The notes under the pieces were generated by a model. That model was given only the letters and a program-made list of their open reading frames with translations, did not search any database and was not told the DNA's origin. This document shows positions 38,524 to 58,386 of a stretch of 64,000 nucleotides of DNA, one piece after another; positions within the stretch are counted from its first letter, which is position 1, and each line of letters begins with the position of its first letter. This DNA comes from a virus. The stretch lies in IMG/VR virus record IMGVR_UViG_3300045988_156245; one strand, 5' to 3'. The position numbers and the translations under genes are program-made.

Positions 38524-39636
38524 TTAAGATTTTTTAGCTGGCTTTTTGTTACGGCATACCTTGCATATACTATAAAAGCCGTCACGACTCGTTTTATTTT
38601 TAGAAAAGAATTTATTATGAGCTAATTTAATTTCTCCACATCTTGAACATTTTTTCCATTGACCTTTTTCTTCTTCTGTATAATGCCAGATTAAATAATC
38701 TTCTACCGCCTTCTCCGCAATTAATTTTGGAATTTTATTTCTCCATAAAGATGATAAATATTCAACAGTATAAGTCATATTGTATTTTTCTTGTAACAAT
38801 TGTTGTATTTCTATATTCTGTTTACCATCTATTTTATATATCATTAAATCATAATATAGGGGATAATCAAATTTTAGAGTTCTGTCAACTAAATCTTCTA
38901 AGTCTTTCATTAAATAATAAGAATCACTGCTAAATTTATCAAAACAATCTTCTTTTAATTTACCATAATTGCACAATAATGCAGAAATATGTTTTGGATT
39001 AAAAAATGAAATTAATCCATCATTATGAGGTATACCATTCTCATCTATTGAAAATTTATCACTAAAATCTATTTTACTAAAACTTTTAATAGCATTAACA
39101 CTATACATTGGTGGTTTATATGCATTTTTTATTACGTATTGGTCTTTACGCATTTCTATAATTTGCTTTTTTAATAAATATTTTTTCTTACCTCTTGCAT
39201 TTTTAGCTTTTTCTTCTACTTTTTCTATTGCATCTCTAAGGTCTTTTAAAGCGGGGATTTCCGCCACATCTTTCTCTGTAATTTCAAATTTTGGTTTAAA
39301 AATAATATTTTTATCATTTGCAATAATATTATAGATACCATCTTCGCCATTTTCAAATTTACCTACAAGTCCTTCAAAAGACATCTCTCTTTCATTTACT
39401 GTTACCATTCTATTGTCAGTTAATATCTTTTTCTTTTTTCTTTCTTCTTTATCCATTGCAAATACTATATAATCTGTTAATATACTTATATATCTTTTTG
39501 AAAGTTTTTCAGGAGGCGTTTCAGCTATAATCTTTTTTACTAATTCATTGCGGGCTTCCGGTGTTTCAAGCGTATAATCTAGCTTTAATCTGCCATCATC
39601 GGCCACCGCCGCATTTTCATACATTGTCTCTGTCAT
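38524..39636 (-). CDS. hypothetical protein with C-terminal zinc ribbon; first gene of late operon
   Basis: 370 aa; C-terminal CSRCGEIK...DGFYSICKVC motif common in phage DNA-binding/HNH-associated zinc ribbons. Confidence 0.5.
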   Translation of the reverse strand: MTETMYENAAVADDGRLKLDYTLETPEARNELVKKIIAETPPEKLSKRYISILTDYIVFAMDKEERKKKKILTDNRMVTVNEREMSFEGLVGKFENGEDGIYNIIANDKNIIFKPKFEITEKDVAEIPALKDLRDAIEKVEEKAKNARGKKKYLLKKQIIEMRKDQYVIKNAYKPPMYSVNAIKSFSKIDFSDKFSIDENGIPHNDGLISFFNPKHISALLCNYGKLKEDCFDKFSSDSYYLMKDLEDLVDRTLKFDYPLYYDLMIYKIDGKQNIEIQQLLQEKYNMTYTVEYLSSLWRNKIPKLIAEKAVEDYLIWHYTEEEKGQWKKCSRCGEIKLAHNKFFSKNKTSRDGFYSICKVCRNKKPAKKS

Positions 39637-39704: not shown

Positions 39705-39733
39705 ATTATAACACAAAATTTTTTCTTTGTCAA
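39705..39733 (-). promoter_or_regulatory. consensus promoter of the minus-strand structural operon
   Basis: reverse complement reads TTGACA-aagaaaaaattttgtgt-TATAAT (N17, TGn). Confidence 0.6.
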
Positions 39734-41312: not shown

Positions 41313-41462
41313 TATATTCTTTATCTCTTGATAGGTAAGATGATACCATAGAGACAGATAGTATAAGTGTTTGTAATTATATATAAATAATATGATATGA
41401 TAATAATGTTATCTATATACTGTTCAGAATAAAAGAACAAATGCTATATATAGCTATTGCGT

Positions 41463-41502
41463 CGGGCCGTGGACATTGTTCCTTGTTCCTGTCCACGGGC
41501 CG
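41463..41502 (+). other. conserved GTGGACA hairpin, copy 1
   Basis: stem ccgtggaca/tgtccacgg plus basal cgg/ccg, 14-nt loop ttgttccttgttcc. Confidence 0.7.
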
Positions 41503-41520
41503 TCTTTACCATAGGTAAAA

Positions 41521-41753
41521 TTGCACAAAAATTTTTGAATTGAAACGTTTTTATTTGTGCAATATGCACAATTCCCACAAAGAACATACGTTTGTCAATA
41601 GGCAAATTGCACAAAAATGTGGGGATAAAAACGTTTCAATCCTGTGCAATTTGTACAAATTGCACAAAACAGTTTTAGTGCAATTTTACCAACTTCCGGC
41701 ACTTTGCACAAAAAGTATCAAAAGCTTTAGAGTTATTTTTGTGCAATTTGCAC
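41521..41753. repeat. cluster of at least 8 TTGCACAAA / TTTGTGCAA boxes
   Basis: forward copies at 41521, 41607, 41659, 41704; reverse at 41554, 41644, 41738; variant ttgtacaaa at 41650. Confidence 0.75.
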
Positions 41754-41827
41754 TCTTGACAAAGCCAAAGGTTTGGTTCTAAGGCTAAGATTAAGCACTC
41801 AAGAGCAGAGCAATACACTACATCACA

Positions 41828-41889: not shown

Positions 41890-42114
41890 ATGATAACTTT
41901 ACAATTTACACTATTCAGTACAACAGGTAAATACAAACCAGTAACTACTTTAATAAAGGTTGATAGTGTGCAACAGTACAATGAGAATAAACATAAATAT
42001 CAACAAAGAGCAATCACTAAAATGTGTGCAGAAAAACATACTACTTGGTGGGCATTAAAGAGCAACGGTTTTACAAAATTAAAAGTAAGGGTTTATCCTA
42101 AAAATAATAGTTGA
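41890..42114 (+). CDS. hypothetical protein (74 aa)
   Basis: ATG after gagaggag RBS, downstream of the promoter at 41828. Confidence 0.55.
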   Translation: MITLQFTLFSTTGKYKPVTTLIKVDSVQQYNENKHKYQQRAITKMCAEKHTTWWALKSNGFTKLKVRVYPKNNS

Positions 42115-42139
42115 CAGTTTTAAAAATGTATGATAAAAT
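42111..42139 (+). promoter_or_regulatory. promoter
   Basis: TTGACA-N17-TAAAAT with TGn. Confidence 0.55.
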
Positions 42140-42176
42140 AAGGTATACTCAAAAAGGAAAGAGAGGTAATAAGGTT

Positions 42177-42491
42177 ATGAGTAGAACAAGACAGAATAGA
42201 AGAAGTAAGAGAGAAGAGTGTGTGATTAATGGGTGCATTTGTTTATTAATTGCTATTATATTGTATGGTTCAATGGGTGCTATTGATTACATTGAAACAC
42301 ATTACAACAGATTAGCAATAGTGACAGAATGTAAAGATGACAATATTATCACTAAAGACAAGCAAGGTAATCTATTCGCTTTTGAGGGCGATGGCTTTAA
42401 GGTAGGCGATGAAGTAGTGCTTGAAATGTATACTAATCATACAGACAATACAATCAAAGATGATGAAATTTTAAATGTAAAATTAAAATAG
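42177..42491 (+). CDS. membrane-anchored small protein (104 aa)
   Basis: basic N-terminus then TM CICLLIAIILYGSMGAI. Confidence 0.55.
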   Translation: MSRTRQNRRSKREECVINGCICLLIAIILYGSMGAIDYIETHYNRLAIVTECKDDNIITKDKQGNLFAFEGDGFKVGDEVVLEMYTNHTDNTIKDDEILNVKLK

Positions 42492-42494
42492 TAA

Positions 42495-42573
42495 AAAGTA
42501 AATGGCTACCTTTGTAGGGTACTACAAAGGTAGCACAATATTAAGAGAACAGACCAGAACGTCCGTTCGGGTC
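42495..42573 (-). ncRNA. candidate antisense small RNA a
   Basis: starts about 7 nt after the minus-strand promoter 42580-42609; GC-rich cggacccgaacggacguuc head; ends at the 13-bp hairpin 42505-42534 followed by uuuuu on the minus strand. Confidence 0.35.
42505..42534. terminator. 13-bp hairpin shared by the plus gene end and antisense RNA a
   Basis: gctacctttgtag/ctacaaaggtagc; the U-run is only on the minus strand. Confidence 0.55.
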
Positions 42574-42579
42574 CGAAAT

Positions 42580-42609
42580 ATTATACCACAAAGTATGTGG
42601 TGTTGTCAA
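42580..42609 (-). promoter_or_regulatory. antisense consensus promoter a
   Basis: reverse complement TTGACA-acaccacatactttgtgg-TATAAT (N18, TGn). Confidence 0.6.
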
Positions 42610-42707
42610 GACTTTTTTTAAAATTTTTTTAAAAAATTTTAAAAATCCTGAAATAAAACTGGTTAAAAAACATCAAGGATTTTAATAAAAGAGGTTAAAA
42701 AACATCA

Positions 42708-42735
42708 TTGAATTGTTCTGTTATTTTGATATAAT
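42708..42735 (+). promoter_or_regulatory. promoter with conserved ATAAGATAAAG leader
   Basis: TTGAAT-N16-TGaTATAAT; leader acataagataaaggaaagg then hairpin 42760-42776. Confidence 0.55.
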
Positions 42736-42790
42736 GTATACATAAGATAAAGGAAAGGACAACATCAAAGATGTTGAAAGGTAAAGTAAA

Positions 42791-43006
42791 ATGAGATTTT
42801 TTGTACAAGACACAGAGGAATTTGAAAATAATGGAATTGAATACAAGAGTTTAGATAAAGCAATTGAAGCTTGTTTAGAAGCAAAAAATAAAGCTTATCT
42901 TATTCATATAGGTTATTGGAATTTAGATTATTATAAAAAAGGTGACACATTCGAAAGTCTAAAGGCTAGATGTGAAAACATCATAAAAGAAAATAATCTC
43001 AAGTAA
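42791..43006 (+). CDS. hypothetical protein (71 aa)
   Basis: ORF behind the conserved leader. Confidence 0.6.
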   Translation: MRFFVQDTEEFENNGIEYKSLDKAIEACLEAKNKAYLIHIGYWNLDYYKKGDTFESLKARCENIIKENNLK

Positions 43007-43057
43007 TTGAGATTATTTTCAAAAAAGACTTGATAAACTGTATAATTACTAAAATAA

Positions 43058-43147
43058 AGAAAAAAGGGGGGCAACCCCTTTTTATTATTTTAAAAGAAGG
43101 CGAACACCGTTCGAACAGGTGTTCACCCCGAATTCGCAAGGGCACCC
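43058..43147 (-). ncRNA. candidate antisense small RNA b
   Basis: minus-strand promoter 43154-43182; RNA contains the gaacacc/ggtgttc hairpin and ends at the aaaaagggg...ccccttttt hairpin with a U-run. Confidence 0.35.
43061..43086. terminator. bidirectional G/C hairpin with flanking A/T runs
   Basis: aaaaagggggg caa cccctttttatt. Confidence 0.6.
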
Positions 43148-43153
43148 CATTCA

Positions 43154-43182
43154 AGTATATCATATTTCAAAAAGTTTGTCAA
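43154..43182 (-). promoter_or_regulatory. antisense consensus promoter b
   Basis: reverse complement TTGACA-aactttttgaaatatga-TATACT (N17, TGn). Confidence 0.6.
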
Positions 43183-43352
43183 GACTTTTTTTGAAAAAAT
43201 CCTGAGAAAAATTGCACAAAAAAGATACTGAATTTTTGTTACTATTTGCTATTGATTTTAAAAGTCAATAGTAAATATTAACAAAAATTTTGCTGTAAAC
43301 TTTATCTGTTTTTGTGCAAATTGCTAAAGTTAAAAAACTTTTGTAAAAACTA

Positions 43353-43381
43353 TAGACAAAACCAAAAAAAAGCTGTATAAT
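43353..43381 (+). promoter_or_regulatory. promoter with conserved leader
   Basis: TAGACA-N17-TATAAT; leader acataagataaagaaaggg plus hairpin 43405-43422. Confidence 0.5.
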
Positions 43382-43437
43382 GTTTACATAAGATAAAGAA
43401 AGGGAGCGACCAAGGGGTCGCTGATAGGTAAAACAAA

Positions 43438-43713
43438 ATGATGAATCTTACAGAAAGAATTAAAAAAGTTGAAGAAATTAGCAGACAGTTACAAATAGCA
43501 TACCCACAATATAGTAATAAAGATATTGAATCATTTAATTTGAATTGTATAAAATCAATTGGAGATTTTGCTTTTATTGCTATTTTTGCTAATGTAGACT
43601 GTTATACAATAACTTTATATAACTCAATAGGGTTTAAAAAAATAGAAATAGAAAAAAATGATATTGATTTTCAATACCTTTATAAAATAATAGAAATATT
43701 TATGGAAAGATAA
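43438..43713 (+). CDS. hypothetical protein (91 aa)
   Basis: ORF behind the conserved leader. Confidence 0.6.
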   Translation: MMNLTERIKKVEEISRQLQIAYPQYSNKDIESFNLNCIKSIGDFAFIAIFANVDCYTITLYNSIGFKKIEIEKNDIDFQYLYKIIEIFMER

Positions 43714-43723
43714 AAAGAGGTAA

Positions 43724-43736
43724 GGGGGGGGGGGGG
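43724..43736 (+). repeat. G13 homopolymer tract
   Basis: 13 consecutive G immediately 5' of the ATG at 43737. Confidence 0.9.
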
Positions 43737-43774
43737 ATGAAAAGCCCCCACACAATAAAAAAGAGGTGTTTAAA

Positions 43775-43912
43775 ATGAAACAAAAATATTTTGAAATAGG
43801 TAACCGACTAACAACTGGCTTAGGACTTGAAAATAAAACAGTGATTAAATACTGGAAAGCATACGAAAAAAATAATTTTTTTGTCTGCTGGCTAATATCT
43901 AAAGTGGCATAA
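43775..43912 (+). CDS. small ORF (45 aa) coupled to a 13-codon leader ORF
   Basis: leader ORF 43737-43778 (MKSPHTIKKRCLK) ends in ATGA overlapping the ATG at 43775; aagaggtg RBS; terminator follows. Confidence 0.4.
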   Translation: MKQKYFEIGNRLTTGLGLENKTVIKYWKAYEKNNFFVCWLISKVA

Positions 43913-43964
43913 ATGCCACTTTTTATTTTTGTGCGTTCGGTCTACCCGAACGTACGTTCGGAGC
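43900..43964 (-). ncRNA. candidate antisense small RNA c
   Basis: minus-strand promoter 43971-43999; RNA begins ggcuccgaacguacguucggguagaccgaacgc with mutually exclusive CCGAAC/GUUCGG pairings. Confidence 0.3.
43903..43930 (+). terminator. rho-independent terminator
   Basis: agtggcat/atgccact stem followed by tttttattttt. Confidence 0.6.
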
Positions 43965-43970
43965 CGAAAA

Positions 43971-43999
43971 ATTATATCATATATGTGTCAAGTTGTCAA
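43971..43999 (-). promoter_or_regulatory. antisense consensus promoter c
   Basis: reverse complement TTGACA-acttgacacatatatga-TATAAT (N17, TGn). Confidence 0.6.
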
Positions 44000-44460: not shown

Positions 44461-44740
44461 TGACTAACAGAAGTTAGTCTTGACTAACTGTTATTAGTAT
44501 TATCTAACTATAGTTAGTTTAGTCTAATTTTAATTAGTGATGTCTAACTATGGTTAGTCTAGACTAACTGAAGTTAGAAGTGTCAAACTTTAGTTACTAT
44601 AGGCTAACTTTGATTGGTTGTTTGAAACTCAGGTTAGTATAGGCTAACCGCAGTTAAGTGTTTGAAACTCTTGTTAGGTGTAACTAACCAGAGTTAGTAT
44701 AGGCTAACTCAAATTAGTTATTTGAAACTCTTGTTTTATT
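44461..44740. repeat. array 1: 14 phased 20-bp units with CTAAC-N4-GTTAG palindromes
   Basis: exact 20-bp register from 44461; arms conserved, centres and spacers variable; 40-bp super-period in the right half. Confidence 0.9.
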
Positions 44741-44743
44741 AAG

Positions 44744-44783
44744 CGGACCGTGGACATTGGACCTTATTTTTGTCCACGGTCCG
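44744..44783 (+). other. conserved GTGGACA hairpin, copy 2
   Basis: 13-bp stem cggaccgtggaca/tgtccacggtccg, 14-nt loop ttggaccttatttt. Confidence 0.75.
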
Positions 44784-44793
44784 TCTGGTCCAG

Positions 44794-44814
44794 CCGAACA
44801 TACGTTCGGGTTTT
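44794..44814 (+). terminator. CCGAAC-atac-GTTCGG terminator
   Basis: 6-bp GC-rich stem plus tttt; identical copy at 49289-49309. Confidence 0.6.
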
Positions 44815-47737: not shown

Positions 47738-47858
47738 TGGGAATGGAATTTGAATGTAGCAAAGAACAATCTGTTTTTAATTGGTCGGCTCGTGGACATT
47801 GCACCTTATTTCTGTCCACGAGCCGAATTGTGCGTCAGAGTGACGCTTGAAACGTTTT
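47738..47858 (+). ncRNA. candidate small RNA ending in GTGGACA hairpin copy 3
   Basis: no RBS; 14-bp stem tcggctcgtggaca/tgtccacgagccga (47785-47826, loop ttgcaccttatttc), second hairpin gcgtca-gag-tgacgc (47832-47846), U-run 47855-47858. Confidence 0.4.
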
Positions 47859-49182: not shown

Positions 49183-49211
49183 TTGACAAAGTGCGGCGGA
49201 TGTGCTATAAT
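49183..49211 (+). promoter_or_regulatory. promoter of candidate small RNA
   Basis: TTGACA-N17-TATAAT; the -10 context atgtgcTATAAT is identical to the promoter at 53770. Confidence 0.55.
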
Positions 49212-49217
49212 AAAATG

Positions 49218-49309
49218 GGACTCTATAGACTCATATATTTCAGATGTTTGTCGGCTCGTCGATGGTTGAGACGAGCCGAGTTGTCAAGCCGAACATACGT
49301 TCGGGTTTT
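49218..49309 (+). ncRNA. candidate small RNA with hairpin variant copy 4 and CCGAAC terminator
   Basis: 10-bp stem tcggctcgtc/gacgagccga (49251-49279), then ccgaac-atac-gttcgg plus tttt (49289-49309); no RBS. Confidence 0.4.
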
Positions 49310-49385: not shown

Positions 49386-49640
49386 TCTAACAAAAGTTAG
49401 ACACAACTAATTCTAGTTAGGCTTGACTAACCCCAGTTAGCCTAAACTAACTAAAGTTAGTTACTATTAATTTAAGTTAGCTGTAACTAACTTTTGTTAG
49501 CCACCTCTCATTAAAGTTTTGTTAAACTAATTTTAGTTAGATTGCCCCTAATTCAAGTTAGTTATAACTAACGCAAGTTAGACTTCACAAATAAAAGTTA
49601 GTTAAAACTAACAGCAGTTAGATTAAACTATCGTCATTTT
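49386..49640. repeat. array 2: 13 phased 20-bp units with CTAAC-N4-GTTAG palindromes
   Basis: left arms at 49387, 49407, 49427, 49447, 49467, 49487, 49507, 49527, 49548, 49568, 49588, 49608, 49628; GTTAG arm nearly invariant; alternate units read aACTAAY. Confidence 0.9.
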
Positions 49641-49747
49641 GCACAAAATTTTCAATTGAAAAATTTTGTATGATTGCACAAAAAATAATATCCCCAACCC
49701 CGCATTTTTGTGCAATCTGCTAAAGTTAATTAAAATGATAACAAAGT

Positions 49748-52372: not shown

Positions 52373-52413
52373 TGCAAGTAGTATTCAATACTACTTGCAT
52401 TTTTTATTTTTTT
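52373..52413 (+). terminator. strong rho-independent terminator
   Basis: tgcaagtagta/tactacttgca stem then tttttattttttt. Confidence 0.75.
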
Positions 52414-52580
52414 CAATGTTACATATTGTATGAGTGCGGGGGAGCCGGTATTAGTGACTTTTACCTAAATACAATATGTGATATGTCACGTACTATGTTA
52501 CATATTATAATATGTGATATATCACACGCAAGGTCACATATTACAATATGTGATATGTTACATACAATATGTGACCTTAA
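52405..52580. repeat. cluster of ATATGTGAT / ATCACAT direct and inverted repeats with 7-bp phasing
   Basis: acaatatgtgatatgt(c/t)ac at 52471, 52543, partial 52564; tgtgatatatcaca palindrome 52513-52526; tcacatatt-ac-aatatgtga palindrome 52534-52553. Confidence 0.8.
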
Positions 52581-52590
52581 CAGGACTCAT

Positions 52591-52617
52591 CGCAGCGTTT
52601 CCGGTTGAAACGCTGCG
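52591..52617. other. GC-rich 10-bp hairpin
   Basis: cgcagcgttt/aaacgctgcg, loop ccggttg; lies at the 5' end of the transcript predicted from the antisense promoter 52635-52663. Confidence 0.6.
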
Positions 52618-52634: not shown

Positions 52635-52663
52635 ATTATACCACTTTTTCACTCCGATGTCAA
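52635..52663 (-). promoter_or_regulatory. antisense consensus promoter d
   Basis: reverse complement TTGACA-tcggagtgaaaaagtgg-TATAAT (N17, TGn). Confidence 0.6.
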
Positions 52664-53769: not shown

Positions 53770-53798
53770 TTGACAAATAGTAACAAATGTGCTATAAT
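53770..53798 (+). promoter_or_regulatory. promoter of candidate GC-rich RNA
   Basis: TTGACA-N17-TATAAT (atgtgcTATAAT). Confidence 0.6.
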
Positions 53799-53803
53799 TG
53801 TCG

Positions 53804-53968
53804 GAGCCTGAGCGAGCGACAGGCTCCGAGTCCCAGTCCCATACTCTATATGGCGAATTTTTCTGAGTGTTTGAACTTGCATATTTTTTTCTACCGCGTC
53901 CCGAAATCCTTTACCGGCATCTCCGCATATGGCCGCCAATTCTGAGTGTTTTGAGTCCCCTATTTTTT
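53804..53968 (+). ncRNA. candidate structured non-coding RNA (GC-rich island)
   Basis: about 165 nt, visibly GC-rich against the AT-rich background; 5' hairpin cggagcctg/caggctccg (53802-53828); internal duplication atatggc(c)g..aatt(t)tctgagtgttt(t)ga at 53848 and 53927; ends in tattttttaa; no plausible ORF on the plus strand. Confidence 0.4.
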
Positions 53969-54060
53969 AATTTGATTTTTATAAAAAAATATGATATAAT
54001 AATAAAAAAAGACTAAAATATTCCCGCTGCCTTTCTCCGCCTTATTATAATATTTCTAAT

Positions 54061-54292
54061 GTCTTTTCCATAAAACTATATTTCTAACATTTCCTGCCCG
54101 TTTATCAATAGAATAATATAGCAAAAACTTTTTCTCTCACTTCATTTTTCAGTGTTTATTTTTTCAAGAGTGCAACTTAACAATTTAAGCCTAAAAAATT
54201 TTAGCATTTTTGCTTACTCTAAGTCTTATTCATAAAACTTATATTCTAACATTTTCCGCCAAATCAATAGCACAATAATATAACAAAATTCA
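54061..54292. repeat. pair of ~68-bp imperfect direct repeats in a 350-bp ORF-free gap
   Basis: gtcttttccataaaactatatttctaacatttcctgcccgtttatcaatag... (54061-54128) versus gtcttattcataaaacttatattctaacattttccgccaaatcaatag... (54223-54292). Confidence 0.75.
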
Positions 54293-54310
54293 GTCCACTC
54301 TTCCCAATTG

Positions 54311-57276: not shown

Positions 57277-58386
57277 ATGACAACTATTATACAAACTGGA
57301 ACTAAATATGATTTATATGATTCAAGTATACAGACACATCAGTCTTTACCTGCGGGAATCTATAAGGTAACTTTTAACCCTCAGTCAGGACATCAATTAT
57401 TATATGTTGCGGATAAGAATGATATTAAAGAAAAAATTTATGGCGTTCATACAAAGAAAGTTGAAAAAGTATTAAATACATTTCGTAACTTCAATAGAAG
57501 CGAAGGAGTGTTATTAAGCGGCGATAAAGGTATTGGTAAATCTTTATTCACTAAATTATTAACAAATGCGGTAATTGATATGGGATTACCAGTTATTTAT
57601 GTTAATGAAGCTAGTCCAAATTTAGGGGATTATATTGATAGTATTCCTACTGAATGTATGATTTTATTTGATGAATTTGATAAAACTTTTAGTTCTCCTT
57701 ATGAACAAAATGATTTATTATCACTTTTTGACGGAACTTCTCGTAATAAAAAGTTATTTGTAATTACTTGTAATAATTTAGATAGCCTTAGTTCATTTTT
57801 GGTAAATAGACCAGGAAGATTTCATTATCATATCTGCTTTAAATATCCTACATCAGAAGATATTGTAAAATATTTAAAAGATAAGTTAGATGAAAAATAT
57901 TGGGGCGAGATACCAAAAGTAGTAAAGCGAGCAACCGCAATTAAAACAAACTATGATACTTTAAGAGCAATAGCTTATGAACTTCAGCAAGGTTGGTCTT
58001 TTGAAGAAGCAATAGAAGATTTAAACATTGATAAAGGTAATAAAACAATTTATTTTAATATATGCTATACGCAAAAAAATAAAGAACGTCATAGTCTTAA
58101 AGTACCATTTGTTCCTTCTAAAGTAGAAGCGGAAAAGGTAAAATTATCACTTACAGATAAATTGGGAAATTTTATTGGTGAAGCAATATTTTCTACTGAT
58201 GATTTTTACTTTGATATAAATGATAATGATTTTAAACTTAATATAGAAAAAGCAACTTATCAGTTTAGCACAATTAAACGTGGTATATATATGTCACAGG
58301 ATGGAGAAGAAATTGTAACTGACAAAGACAAAGAAAATGCAGTTATCACTGAAATTGTTATTACCAATATATCAGAAGATTTTTGA
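57277..58386 (+). CDS. classic-clade AAA ATPase
   Basis: 369 aa; Walker A LLSGDKGIGKS, Walker B MILFDEFD, sensor-1 VITCNN, SRH NRPGRFHY; about 130-aa C-terminal domain of unknown type. Confidence 0.75.
   Translation: MTTIIQTGTKYDLYDSSIQTHQSLPAGIYKVTFNPQSGHQLLYVADKNDIKEKIYGVHTKKVEKVLNTFRNFNRSEGVLLSGDKGIGKSLFTKLLTNAVIDMGLPVIYVNEASPNLGDYIDSIPTECMILFDEFDKTFSSPYEQNDLLSLFDGTSRNKKLFVITCNNLDSLSSFLVNRPGRFHYHICFKYPTSEDIVKYLKDKLDEKYWGEIPKVVKRATAIKTNYDTLRAIAYELQQGWSFEEAIEDLNIDKGNKTIYFNICYTQKNKERHSLKVPFVPSKVEAEKVKLSLTDKLGNFIGEAIFSTDDFYFDINDNDFKLNIEKATYQFSTIKRGIYMSQDGEEIVTDKDKENAVITEIVITNISEDF

What the first reader, a model, noticed from the sequence alone, without database searches (positions are those of the whole stretch)
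42495..43999. Three consensus antisense promoters define a family of short GC-rich minus-strand RNAs between plus-strand early genes
Reverse-complementing the intergenic spacers reveals textbook promoters pointing against the early genes. They are TTGACA-N18-TGgTATAAT (42580-42609), TTGACA-N17-TGaTATACT (43154-43182) and TTGACA-N17-TGaTATAAT (43971-43999). Each would start a transcript about 7 nt downstream, entering a locally GC-rich patch built around CCGAAC/GTTCGG-type pairings. Each transcript would run into the hairpin that also ends the upstream plus-strand gene. For copies a and b that hairpin is followed by a U-run only or also on the minus strand (42505-42534, 43061-43086). The predicted products are about 60-90 nt, contain no RBS-led ORF, and are complementary to the 3' UTRs of convergent early mRNAs. 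Copy c (43935-43968) can fold into three mutually exclusive hairpins (gttcgg/ccgaac, ccgaacg/cgttcgg, ttcgg/ccgaa), which looks like a switch. Three such units in 1.5 kb plus a fourth at 52.6 kb argue for a dedicated antisense or small-RNA layer in the early region.
Basis: partly seen in the sequence, partly recalled or inferred. Interest (0 to 1): 0.75.

Follow-up and report, generated by a model that had tools for sequence, protein, structure and literature searches.

The report
SOS-box-gated antisense promoters in phage
Between the early genes of an uncultured SPO1-like gut phage sit conserved, backward-pointing consensus promoters whose GC-rich "hairpins" are most likely binding sites for the host DNA-damage repressor LexA, so a probably lytic phage may gate short antisense transcripts on host stress.

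Summary
Minus-strand promoters lie at 42609-42580 (12/12), 43182-43154 (11/12), 43999-43971 (12/12) and 52663-52635 (12/12). The window has 13 perfect sigma-70 promoters against 0.08 expected. The units are non-coding, under purifying selection, and recur in a clade of uncultured gut and rumen phages. One distant relative has six units in 4.3 kb.

The interpretation needs correcting. The "CCGAAC/GTTCGG pairings" are copies of a 14-bp palindrome, CGAAC-N4-GTTCG. The window has 5 sites with at most 1 mismatch against 0.10 expected. This is the published LexA operator consensus of Bacillus. The sites sit at about +5..+18 (a, c) and +23..+36 (b) of the antisense promoters.

Conservation stops at the 14-mer. 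Symmetry continues into the supposed loop. The stem shows no covariation. Promoter-free clusters of the motif also exist. All this points to a protein-bound DNA operator rather than an RNA switch.

Unit a has minus-only terminators and unit b a bidirectional one. Units c and d lack a good minus-strand terminator.

Best reading: repressor-gated, probably SOS-gated, convergent transcription units. The closest known case is lambda pO-oop-tO, which also carries a LexA site. Here the unit is multi-copy and sits in a probably virulent SPO1-like phage. LexA binding, the host and the transcripts themselves are all untested.

The parts
42580..42609 (-). Promoter a: TTGACA-N18-TGgTATAAT, preceded by an A-tract
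   Evidence: 12/12 match with extended -10. Near-invariant in relatives.
42556..42569 (.). SOS-box-like palindrome a. The minus strand reads CGAACGGACGTTCT (1 mismatch). It starts 10 nt after the -10, at about +5..+18.
   Evidence: It is a perfect CGAAC-N4-GTTCG in relatives L005, L008, L018, L025 and L038. Only the N4 spacer varies.
42505..42534 (-). 13-bp hairpin with a U-run on the minus strand only. It terminates transcript a just before the stop codon of the upstream gene (42491).
   Evidence: 0.998 mean identity to the window across 8 relatives.
42490..42573 (-). Predicted non-coding transcript a, about 78 nt, or about 36 nt if it stops at the first hairpin (42547-42568)
   Evidence: Inferred from promoter and terminator positions. 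Fold z-score -6.4. No ORF.
43154..43182 (-). Promoter b: TTGACA-N17-TGaTATACT, with a TTTGTGCAA motif and an A-tract upstream
   Evidence: 11/12 match. 100% conserved in relatives.
43112..43125 (.). SOS-box-like palindrome b. The minus strand reads TGAACACCTGTTCG (1 mismatch), at about +23..+36. An extra CGAAC half-site lies at 43101-43105.
   Evidence: It is a perfect CGAAC-ACGT-GTTCG in L025 and L038. Invariant among close relatives.
43061..43083 (.). Bidirectional terminator shared by plus-strand gene 42791-43006 and transcript b
   Evidence: Flagged on both strands. T-rich tails on both sides.
43053..43147 (-). Predicted non-coding transcript b, about 59-95 nt. Its 5' part (TGAATGGGGTGCCC...) is conserved in distant relatives.
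   Evidence: The small ATG frame is not conserved.
43971..43999 (-). Promoter c: TTGACA-N17-TGaTATAAT
   Evidence: 12/12 match. Conserved in relatives.
43947..43960 (.). Perfect SOS-box palindrome c, CGAACGTACGTTCG, at about +5..+18. Extra half-sites lie at 43935-43940 and 43964-43968.
   Evidence: Invariant in relatives. The distal half-site varies.
43901..43922 (+). Terminator of plus-strand gene 43766-43912. It has a poor U-run on the minus strand, so transcript c may read through in antisense.
52635..52663 (-). Promoter d: TTGACA-N17-TGgTATAAT, with TTTTTGTGCAAAATTACTA upstream
   Evidence: 12/12 match.
52590..52616 (-). 11-bp GC hairpin after promoter d. It is not a CGAAC box. One compensatory change is seen in relative L041.
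   Evidence: No minus-strand terminator within about 260 nt.
44795..44808 (.). Perfect CGAACATACGTTCG on a plus-strand non-coding unit. A T-run follows it, and it borders a 20-bp-period CTAAC-N4-GTTAG array.
49290..49303 (.). Perfect CGAACATACGTTCG about 75 nt downstream of plus-strand promoter 49183-49211. A T-run follows it, and it borders the second array.

Best explanation
The three elements, and a fourth at 52.6 kb, are genuine host-sigma-A-type promoters that fire against the early genes. They form a distinct, separately regulated promoter class.

In units a, b and c the initially transcribed DNA carries a 14-bp palindrome, CGAAC-N4-GTTCG. This most likely works as a protein operator, and its sequence is that of the Firmicute LexA (SOS) box. 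While the repressor is bound, at about +5..+18 or +23..+36, RNA polymerase is blocked. When it is removed, for example by RecA-stimulated LexA cleavage after DNA damage or once phage replication produces single-stranded DNA, the promoters fire.

Units a and b then make short, self-terminated, non-coding RNAs of about 36-95 nt. These are complementary to the 3' ends of the convergent early transcripts. Units c and d lack a good terminator and can read antisense into the upstream genes. Either way, the likely effect is to damp or insulate early (host-takeover) operons, by RNA pairing or by head-on transcription.

What is shown: the promoters, the palindromes and their positions, the terminator polarity, the sequence conservation, the class distinction, and the lack of RNA covariation.

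What is inferred: the identity of the binding protein (host LexA or a phage protein of like specificity), actual transcription, and the downstream effect on early genes.
For: - The promoters are far beyond chance: 13 perfect against 0.08 expected.
- The window holds 5 CGAAC-N4-GTTCG sites with at most 1 mismatch against 0.10 expected. Three lie just downstream of promoters a, b and c.
- In an unbiased ranking of all N4-spaced 5-mer palindromes, CGAAC is second in the window and first in the pooled distant relatives.
- The published B. subtilis LexA consensus is CGAAC(n)4GTTCG. In phage GIL01, LexA represses promoter P1 from a box plus a half-site located downstream of the transcription start (PMC4551915).
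- Across 15 diverged units the 14-mer is conserved, the N4 spacer is hypervariable, the sixth pair is often mismatched, and the first and last 'loop' bases are G and C/T.
- There is no covariation.
- Some copies read CGAACATATGTTCG.
- Clusters of about 5 boxes occur without any promoter in L009 and L023.
- Boxes follow GC-start non-coding promoters (9 of 29 clusters), not gene-driving ones (1 of 65; p=7e-5). That class also has an upstream TGTGCA motif (22/29 against 11/65), 18-bp spacers and an extended -10.
- Purifying selection is evident. Sites 43112-43182 are invariant, against 0.81-0.96 identity at third codon positions.
- Unit a has minus-only terminators and unit b a bidirectional one.
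- A Firmicute host is likely. The promoters and ribosome-binding sites are of that type, the ATPase is 49-54% identical to those of Enterococcus and Bacillus Herelleviridae, and there is a phage sigma factor.
- Lambda oop is a precedent for a short convergent RNA with a LexA site in its promoter (PMC5869508).
Against: - The host is unknown, so its LexA specificity is untested.
- No binding or transcription data exist.
- About two thirds of the non-coding promoter units in relatives, and unit d here, carry unrelated GC hairpins rather than the box. A hairpin as such may therefore be the general requirement.
- The plus-strand copies (44795, 49290) sit far from their promoter and are always followed by a T-run of varying sequence, as a terminator hairpin would be.
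- Much of the cross-phage recurrence was retrieved with a pattern that already contained CCGAAC. Only the 3' half-site, the spacer and several extra sites are independent evidence.
- Why a probably virulent phage would gate very short RNAs on SOS is unclear.
- The prototype phage SPO1 has nothing similar.
Confidence: 0.45

Rival explanations
1. The units are constitutively expressed genes for small, structured, GC-rich RNAs. The CCGAAC/GTTCGG hairpins are the functional RNA structure, acting as a 5' stabiliser, a terminator or a switch. The RNAs act as antisense or trans-acting regulators.
For: - Strong predicted folds, with z-scores from -3.8 to -6.4.
- Terminators in the right orientation for a and b.
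- Plus-strand units end in the same palindrome followed by a T-run of variable sequence, which looks like a terminator.
- The 5' part of unit b is conserved beyond the box.
- Unit d and the plus-strand hairpin family GNNCGTGGACA...TGTCCACGNNC show compensatory changes.
- SPO1 early leaders also start with GC hairpins.
Against: - No covariation in the CGAAC stem. Outer pairs match shuffled controls.
- The alternative pairing is not significant.
- Only 5 bp are conserved, which makes a marginal hairpin.
- The conserved G and C/T in the 'loop' would close an impossible 2-nt loop.
- Variants of the distal half-site break the proposed switch pairings.
- Promoter-free clusters of the motif exist.
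- No Rfam family matches.
Confidence: 0.22
2. The operator reading is correct, but the binder is a phage-encoded regulator rather than host LexA. It could be related to the protein that presumably binds the 20-bp-period CTAAC-N4-GTTAG arrays. The antisense promoters would then be timed by the phage's own programme and not by host DNA damage.
For: - CTAAC-N4-GTTAG has the same architecture with one base different per arm. It is the most enriched palindrome in the window, at 11 exact copies against 0.056 expected.
- Both arrays are bordered by a perfect CGAAC box.
- The non-coding promoter class also shares an upstream TGTGCA motif, which suggests dedicated regulators.
- GIL01 encodes a LexA-like protein that uses LexA-like sites (PMC6182141, title and abstract).
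Against: - No LexA-like or clear sequence-specific DNA-binding protein was found among about 30 window proteins scanned. Only weak helix-turn-helix hints below the Pfam cut-offs turned up.
- The exact identity with the Bacillus LexA consensus, including CGAACATATGTTCG copies, would be a coincidence.
Confidence: 0.15
3. The units are mainly PeSL-like regulatory cassettes. These would be repeated promoter-plus-palindrome modules whose chief consequence is to provide recombination sites for shuffling ORFan early genes. Their antisense orientation and their transcripts would be secondary.
For: - A 156-aa gene is present or absent exactly at the 3' arm of box a (window against L005, L008, L018, L025 and L038).
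- Tandem cassette duplications are bounded by units in L009 (9572 and 10326) and in L038 (2214 and 2798; 4272 and 4581).
- The flanking genes are ORFans.
- PeSLs are consensus early promoters plus stem-loops that mediate such shuffling in T4-type phages (PMC2839356).
Against: - PeSLs are co-oriented with, and immediately upstream of, the ORFan they serve. These units point away from genes.
- Recombination does not explain the exact operator-like motif, its fixed distance from the -10, the minus-only terminator of unit a, or the distinct promoter class.
- Shuffling may simply be a by-product of any repeated sequence.
Confidence: 0.1
4. The units act at the DNA or polymerase level and need no RNA product. 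They could be near-perfect promoters that serve as RNA polymerase or LexA sinks. They could be back-to-back partners that boost the adjacent plus-strand promoter through negative supercoiling. They could be head-on roadblocks that stop read-through between early operons.
For: - Each minus-strand promoter lies 58-170 bp upstream of, and divergent from, the next plus-strand promoter.
- The transcripts are very short and are terminated at once in a and b.
- Gene 42111-42491 has no plus-strand terminator of its own.
- Convergent promoter pairs flank a single hairpin in L023 and L009.
Against: There is no direct evidence. The model does not explain the specific palindrome or the conserved 5' region of unit b. 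Units b and c already have plus-strand terminators for the upstream genes.
Confidence: 0.08

Closest known systems
Lambda pO-oop-tO (OOP antisense RNA)
   Same: It is a short phage RNA with its own promoter and its own terminator. It is transcribed convergently to an early regulatory gene, and its promoter region carries a LexA-binding sequence. It acts by pairing with the 3' end of the convergent mRNA (PMC5869508; PMC2327240).
   Different: OOP is a single-copy unit in a temperate Gram-negative phage and overlaps 52 nt of cII coding sequence. Here there are three to four copies, and up to six per 4.3 kb in relatives, in a probably virulent SPO1-like phage of a Firmicute. Transcripts a and b stop at the neighbour's stop codon and cover only the 3' UTR. 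The operator is of the Gram-positive type and lies downstream of the start site. There is no sequence homology.
LexA-repressed promoter P1 of Bacillus phage GIL01 (dinBox1 and dinBox1b)
   Same: It uses the same operator consensus, CGAAC(n)4GTTCG. A full box plus an extra half-site lies downstream of the transcription start of a phage promoter, and host LexA acts as the phage's repressor (PMC4551915). Units b and c here also have a box plus extra half-sites.
   Different: GIL01 P1 drives the phage's early genes, and LexA maintains lysogeny there with the help of gp7. Here the gated promoters are antisense and non-coding, and no lysogeny functions or gp7-like proteins were identified.
PeSL (promoter-early stem-loop) cassettes of T4-type phages
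   Same: They are repeated modules of a consensus sigma-70 early promoter plus a stem-loop, concentrated among ORFan early genes. They are associated with gene insertions, deletions and duplications between close relatives (PMC2839356; here).
   Different: PeSLs are co-oriented with the genes and serve as their promoter and the preceding gene's terminator. The units here are inverted relative to the genes, drive no ORF and carry an operator-like palindrome.
SPO1 host-takeover module (Herelleviridae prototype)
   Same: It is a dense run of strong sigma-A promoters, short ORFan genes and terminators. GC hairpins sit at the 5' ends of early leaders, and a phage sigma factor is made early.
   Different: SPO1's 16-kb region has no antisense strong promoter and no CGAAC-N4-GTTCG site with at most 1 mismatch.

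Membership tests
Firmicute LexA (SOS / Cheo) operator | 14-bp palindrome CGAAC-N4-GTTCG | tested here: met
   Box c is perfect. Boxes a and b have 1 mismatch each and are perfect in relatives. The window has 5 sites against 0.10 expected. The consensus is taken from PMC4551915.
Firmicute LexA (SOS / Cheo) operator | The site overlaps or lies just downstream of a promoter, so that binding blocks RNA polymerase | tested here: met
   The box starts 10 nt (a, c) or 28 nt (b) after the -10 hexamer. Boxes are associated with this promoter class in 9 of 29 clusters against 1 of 65.
Firmicute LexA (SOS / Cheo) operator | Conservation pattern of a dimer-bound DNA site: arms fixed, spacer free, no compensatory changes | tested here: met
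Firmicute LexA (SOS / Cheo) operator | Bound by the host's LexA, with de-repression on SOS induction | not testable with these tools
   The host is unknown. No binding or expression data exist.
Firmicute LexA (SOS / Cheo) operator | The host's own SOS genes (recA, lexA, uvrB) carry the same motif | not tested
   The host was not identified.
OOP-type cis-antisense RNA | Own promoter, convergent with the target gene | tested here: met
   This is at sequence level only.
OOP-type cis-antisense RNA | Own terminator giving a short discrete RNA | tested here: inconclusive
   Met for a (minus-only terminator) and b (bidirectional). Not met for c and d.
OOP-type cis-antisense RNA | Complementarity to the coding 3' end of the convergent gene | tested here: not met
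   Transcripts a and b end at or before the neighbour's stop codon (42491 and 43006) and cover only the 3' UTR. Transcript c would overlap only if it reads through.
OOP-type cis-antisense RNA | RNase III-dependent cleavage of the duplex, lowering target expression | not testable with these tools
   This needs experiment.
   No pair in the core stem covaries, and the totals equal shuffled controls.
   Rfam at gathering thresholds gave 0 hits. In the sensitive search the best hit was 27.8 bits against a cut-off of 46.7. No tRNA or tmRNA was found.
PeSL regulatory cassette | Consensus early promoter plus adjacent stem-loop, repeated among ORFans | tested here: met
PeSL regulatory cassette | Positioned immediately upstream of, and co-oriented with, an ORFan | tested here: not met
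   The units point away from the next gene and drive no ORF.
PeSL regulatory cassette | Coincides with insertions, deletions and duplications between close relatives | tested here: met
   An indel of a 156-aa gene lies at unit a. Tandem duplications occur in L009 and L038.
Type I toxin-antitoxin with 3'-overlapping antitoxin RNA | The convergent gene encodes a small hydrophobic toxin peptide | tested here: inconclusive
   The upstream ORFs are 126, 71 and 48 aa with no family match. Only the 126-aa product shows a hydrophobic stretch on reading its sequence, and the 48-aa product is not hydrophobic. No formal toxin test was done.

The most novel reading that the evidence does not exclude
A clade of virulent SPO1-like phages of gut and rumen Firmicutes has wired the host SOS repressor LexA into its early programme. 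Multiple consensus antisense promoters are each held shut by a LexA box in the initially transcribed region. They open when LexA is cleaved, whether by DNA damage in the host or by the phage's own replication intermediates. This shuts down or insulates host-takeover operons. It would be a DNA-damage or replication sensor used as a developmental timer by a lytic phage. With dozens of boxes per replicating genome, it might also serve as a LexA sponge.
Probability: 0.3. Interest if true: 0.75.

Novelty: new variant of a known kind. Interest (0 to 1): 0.55.

Why it matters
LexA control of phage genes is known for temperate phages, where it couples induction to DNA damage. A LexA site in an antisense-RNA promoter is known from a single case, lambda oop. 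I found no description of a probably virulent Herelleviridae-like phage carrying several LexA-type operators placed precisely behind strong antisense promoters in its host-takeover region. The prototype phage SPO1 lacks them.

If real, three things follow. Lytic phages could read host stress, or their own replication, through a host repressor in order to time early-gene shut-off. There would be a defined, easily testable promoter class: an upstream TGTGCA motif, an 18-bp spacer, an extended -10 and a downstream box. And antibiotic-induced SOS could change the infection programme of gut phages.

The finding is also a caution. GC-rich palindromes next to promoters in AT-rich phage DNA can be protein operators and not RNA structures.

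Tried and rejected
- **Known RNA families.** Rfam at gathering thresholds over the whole window gave no hits. The sensitive pass over 41.0-54.5 kb gave only sub-threshold chance hits. No tRNA or tmRNA was found.
- **RNA covariation.** The extended hairpin and the alternative 'X/X-prime' hairpin I had suspected from four units were both indistinguishable from shuffled controls. The switch idea was dropped.
- **Coding potential.** The 21-codon ATG frame at the start of transcript b is interrupted by stops in relatives. No other ORF led by a ribosome-binding site is present.
- **Anti-CRISPR RNA, CsrA decoy, origin or primer RNA, Q-type antitermination.** These were considered from the sequence alone. 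Nothing specific supported them. The variable loop sequences argue against a GGA-loop decoy, and no test was run.
- **Flanking and other window proteins.** Pfam and PHROGs searches found no LexA-like or clear DNA-binding protein. They showed mostly ORFans, a phage sigma factor, a portal, a terminase and an AAA ATPase.
- **Isolated phages carrying the unit.** Only the unannotated metagenomic record MT835855 matched.
- **SPO1 control.** No boxes and no antisense promoters.
- **Genome-collection scan.** It gave one relevant contig, L018, binned with an Oscillospiraceae MAG, plus 11 hits with no similarity to the window. It did not identify the host.
Full report
**What the window is.** The window has 29% G+C. 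Its only database relative among deposited phages is an unannotated human-faecal contig at 93% identity. Late genes occupy the minus strand from 1 to about 40 kb. These include a portal, a large terminase and tail proteins. A run of small ORFan genes occupies the plus strand from 40 to 54 kb.

An AAA ATPase at 57277-58383 is 49-54% identical to those of Enterococcus and Bacillus Herelleviridae. The first gene behind the minus-strand consensus promoter at 39733 is a phage sigma factor (phrog_5767, E=1e-45). So this is an SPO1-like, probably virulent phage of a low-GC Firmicute. The 40-54 kb stretch corresponds to a host-takeover early region read by host sigma-A polymerase. That correspondence is an inference from these homologies and from the promoter and ribosome-binding-site types.

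**The observation.** Promoter a is at 42609-42580 (12/12, N18, TG). Promoter b is at 43182-43154 (11/12, N17, TG). Promoter c is at 43999-43971 (12/12, N17, TG). The fourth is at 52663-52635.

The window holds 13 perfect 12/12 promoters against 0.08 in shuffles. Each of the three promoters leads into a GC-rich patch.

The hairpin at 42505-42534 has a U-run only on the minus strand. The hairpin at 43061-43083 has one on both strands. The hairpin at 43901-43922 is a good terminator only on the plus strand.

With a start 7 nt after the -10, the predicted RNAs are 36 or 78 nt (a), 59 or 95 nt (b) and about 70 nt (c). Unit d has no minus-strand terminator for about 260 nt.

There is no conserved ORF. 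The 21-codon frame in b is broken in relatives.

**The units are conserved and common in a phage clade.** Protein-guided and pattern-guided searches brought in about 30 related contigs from human-gut and other metagenome assemblies. Their identity to the window ranges from 97% down to about 68%.

Among close relatives, unit b is invariant over 71 consecutive sites (43112-43182). Box c is invariant, and box a varies only in its 4-nt spacer. Third codon positions of the flanking genes show 0.81-0.96 identity.

Distant relatives have the same arrangement in greater density. L023 has six antisense units in 4.3 kb, L030 has three and L009 has four.

**They form a distinct promoter class.** I clustered all strong promoters in the window and the phage loci. 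Promoters that start into GC-rich, non-coding sequence differ from gene-driving promoters in four ways.
- An upstream TGTGCA/TGCACA motif: 22 of 29 clusters against 11 of 65 (p=6e-8).
- An 18-bp spacer: 13/29 against 4/65.
- An extended -10 TG: 25/29 against 32/65.
- A GAAC-N4-GTTC element within 90 nt downstream: 9/29 against 1/65 (p=7e-5).

**What the GC-rich patches are.** The "CCGAAC/GTTCGG pairings" resolve into a 14-bp palindrome, CGAAC-N4-GTTCG. The window has five sites with at most one mismatch against 0.10 expected.
- Site a, 42556-42569, lies just downstream of promoter a.
- Site b, 43112-43125, lies downstream of promoter b.
- Site c, 43947-43960, is perfect and lies just downstream of promoter c.
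- Sites at 44795-44808 and 49290-49303 lie on plus-strand non-coding units.

In an unbiased ranking of all N4-spaced 5-mer palindromes, CGAAC is second in the window, after CTAAC. It is first in the pooled distant relatives.

The published B. subtilis LexA operator consensus is CGAAC(n)4GTTCG. In phage GIL01, host LexA represses promoter P1 from a full box plus a half-site lying downstream of the transcription start (PMC4551915). The geometry here is the same. The box begins 10 nt (a, c) or 28 nt (b) after the -10. Units b and c carry extra half-sites.

**RNA structure or DNA operator?** I aligned fifteen diverged promoter-proximal units without gaps. The five core pairs never covary; they are invariant or simply break. 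The four outer pairs are no better than shuffled controls, at 153/500 and 128/500. A suspected alternative hairpin is not significant either, at 41/500 and 71/500.

Conservation ends exactly at the 14-mer. The sixth pair is C.T, C.C, T.C or G.A in L009, L023 and L025.

The first "loop" base is invariant G and the last is C or T. That extends the DNA symmetry to CGAACG-NN-CGTTCG. As RNA, a pair there would have to close a 2-nt loop.

Some copies read CGAACATATGTTCG. Distant relatives also have clusters of about five boxes in 200 bp with no promoter nearby.

In unit c, variants of the distal half-site (CTGAAC, CCAAAC, GTTCGT) break the pairings that the proposed three-way switch needs.

Together these results favour a sequence-specific, dimer-bound DNA site over an RNA fold.

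**Points against the operator reading.** About two thirds of the non-coding promoter units, and unit d, carry unrelated GC hairpins. SPO1 early leaders also begin with GC hairpins.

The plus-strand boxes are always followed by a T-run of varying sequence, as a weak terminator would be.

My search patterns contained CCGAAC. Only the 3' arm, the spacer and the several sites found incidentally count as independent evidence.

**Most likely mechanism.** Promoters a, b and c are strong sigma-A promoters that are held shut while a repressor occupies the box. By sequence that repressor is host LexA. A phage protein of like specificity cannot be excluded.

Loss of the repressor lets the promoters fire. 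This could follow RecA-stimulated cleavage after DNA damage, or the appearance of single-stranded phage replication intermediates.

Units a and b then make short, self-terminated RNAs complementary to the 3' untranslated ends of the convergent early transcripts. The minus-only terminator of unit a shows that minus-strand transcription is expected, and that it is deliberately stopped before the upstream gene. Units c and d can read antisense into the upstream genes.

The effect would be to damp or insulate early operons, by pairing or by head-on transcription. Only the anatomy is shown here. Binding, transcription and effect are all inferred.

**Comparison with known systems.** The closest case is lambda pO-oop-tO. 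It is a short convergent RNA with its own terminator, it is linked to RNase III cleavage of the target message, and it has a LexA-binding sequence in the promoter region (PMC5869508; PMC2327240).

The differences are substantial.
- The units here are multi-copy.
- The phage is probably virulent and infects a Gram-positive host.
- The operator lies downstream of the transcription start.
- Transcripts a and b cover only the 3' UTR of the neighbouring gene.

GIL01 P1 shares the operator type and its position, but it drives genes and maintains lysogeny.

T4-type PeSL cassettes share three features. They have a repeated consensus promoter plus stem-loop, they sit among ORFans, and they are associated with gene gain and loss (PMC2839356). 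Here a 156-aa gene is present or absent exactly at box a, and cassette duplications are bounded by units in L009 and L038. But PeSLs are co-oriented with the genes they serve.

SPO1's own 16-kb host-takeover region has neither boxes nor antisense promoters. Literature searches found no description of such units.

**Verdict.** There is a conserved layer of non-coding convergent transcription units. Their GC-rich cores are best read as LexA-type operators, not as RNA switches.

This is a new variant of a known kind: lambda-oop-like, LexA-linked antisense units. Confidence in the full mechanism is moderate at 0.45, because neither the binder nor the transcripts have been observed.

Noticed in passing
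window 44464-44717 and 49387-49621: Two arrays of the palindrome CTAAC-N4-GTTAG repeat with an exact 20-bp period. There are about 14 and 12 units, with 18 matches at 1 mismatch or fewer against 1.5 expected. Each array is bordered by a perfect CCGAAC-ATAC-GTTCGG, and one lies just downstream of the strong promoter at 49183-49211. They look like iteron or partition-type protein-binding arrays, possibly replication origins.
   Followed up: partly
window 41520-41760, also 49640-49720 and upstream of promoters at 43182, 49183, 52663 and 53770: TTGTGCAA/TTGCACAA motifs are clustered, about 10 copies in 240 bp, and include the 24-bp perfect palindrome TGTGCAATTTGTACAAATTGCACA. The same motif lies about 40-55 bp upstream of the non-coding promoter class (22/29 against 11/65 clusters). 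It is probably the site of an unidentified regulator.
   Followed up: partly
window 41461-41505, 44745-44785, 47784-47826, 49250-49280, 53800-53830 (plus strand): This is a family of plus-strand GC-rich hairpins of the form GTCGG-NN-CGTGGACA...TGTCCACG-NN-CCG. The paralogues show compensatory differences (GGCC/GGCC, GACC/GGTC, GCTC/GAGC). Three of them follow strong promoters (47702, 49183, 53770) with no ORF. They are probably genuine structured small RNAs or leaders, distinct from the CGAAC boxes.
   Followed up: partly
window 52400-52570: A block of repeats and palindromes built on CACATATTGTA/ATATGTGA (for example TCACATATTGTAATATGTGA) lies directly downstream of antisense promoter d. It varies between relatives.
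   Followed up: no
window 38524-39633 (minus) with promoter 39733-39705: A phage sigma-factor gene (phrog_5767, E=1e-45) is the first gene behind a perfect host-type consensus promoter at the head of the minus-strand block. This fits an SPO1-like early-to-middle sigma cascade.
   Followed up: partly
window 53800-54300: About 500 nt of non-coding sequence follows the perfect promoter 53770-53798. It has several GC-rich patches and hairpin-plus-T-run elements before the next gene promoter at 54308.
   Followed up: no
window 43724-43736: A run of 13 G lies between genes 43438-43713 and 43766-43912. This intergenic stretch (43714-43765) is the least conserved segment of the region, at 0.825 identity. 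It may be a slippage-prone tract.
   Followed up: no
L023 469-577 and 3937-4068; L009 8599-8708: Face-to-face pairs of consensus promoters lie only about 70-100 bp apart and flank a single GC-rich hairpin. They would make fully complementary short RNAs or cause polymerase collisions.
   Followed up: no
L005 4641-5108 (also L008, L018, L025, L038): A 156-aa ORFan gene that is absent from the window sits exactly between the upstream gene and box a. The junction lies in the 3' arm of the palindrome. Tandem duplications of gene-plus-unit cassettes occur in L009 (9572 and 10326) and L038 (2214 and 2798).
   Followed up: partly
window 42585-42601: The spacer of promoter a contains an inverted repeat, ACCACA-N5-TGTGGT, that overlaps the extended -10. 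The arms are conserved in relatives and the centre varies. It may be a second operator, or it may be incidental.
   Followed up: no
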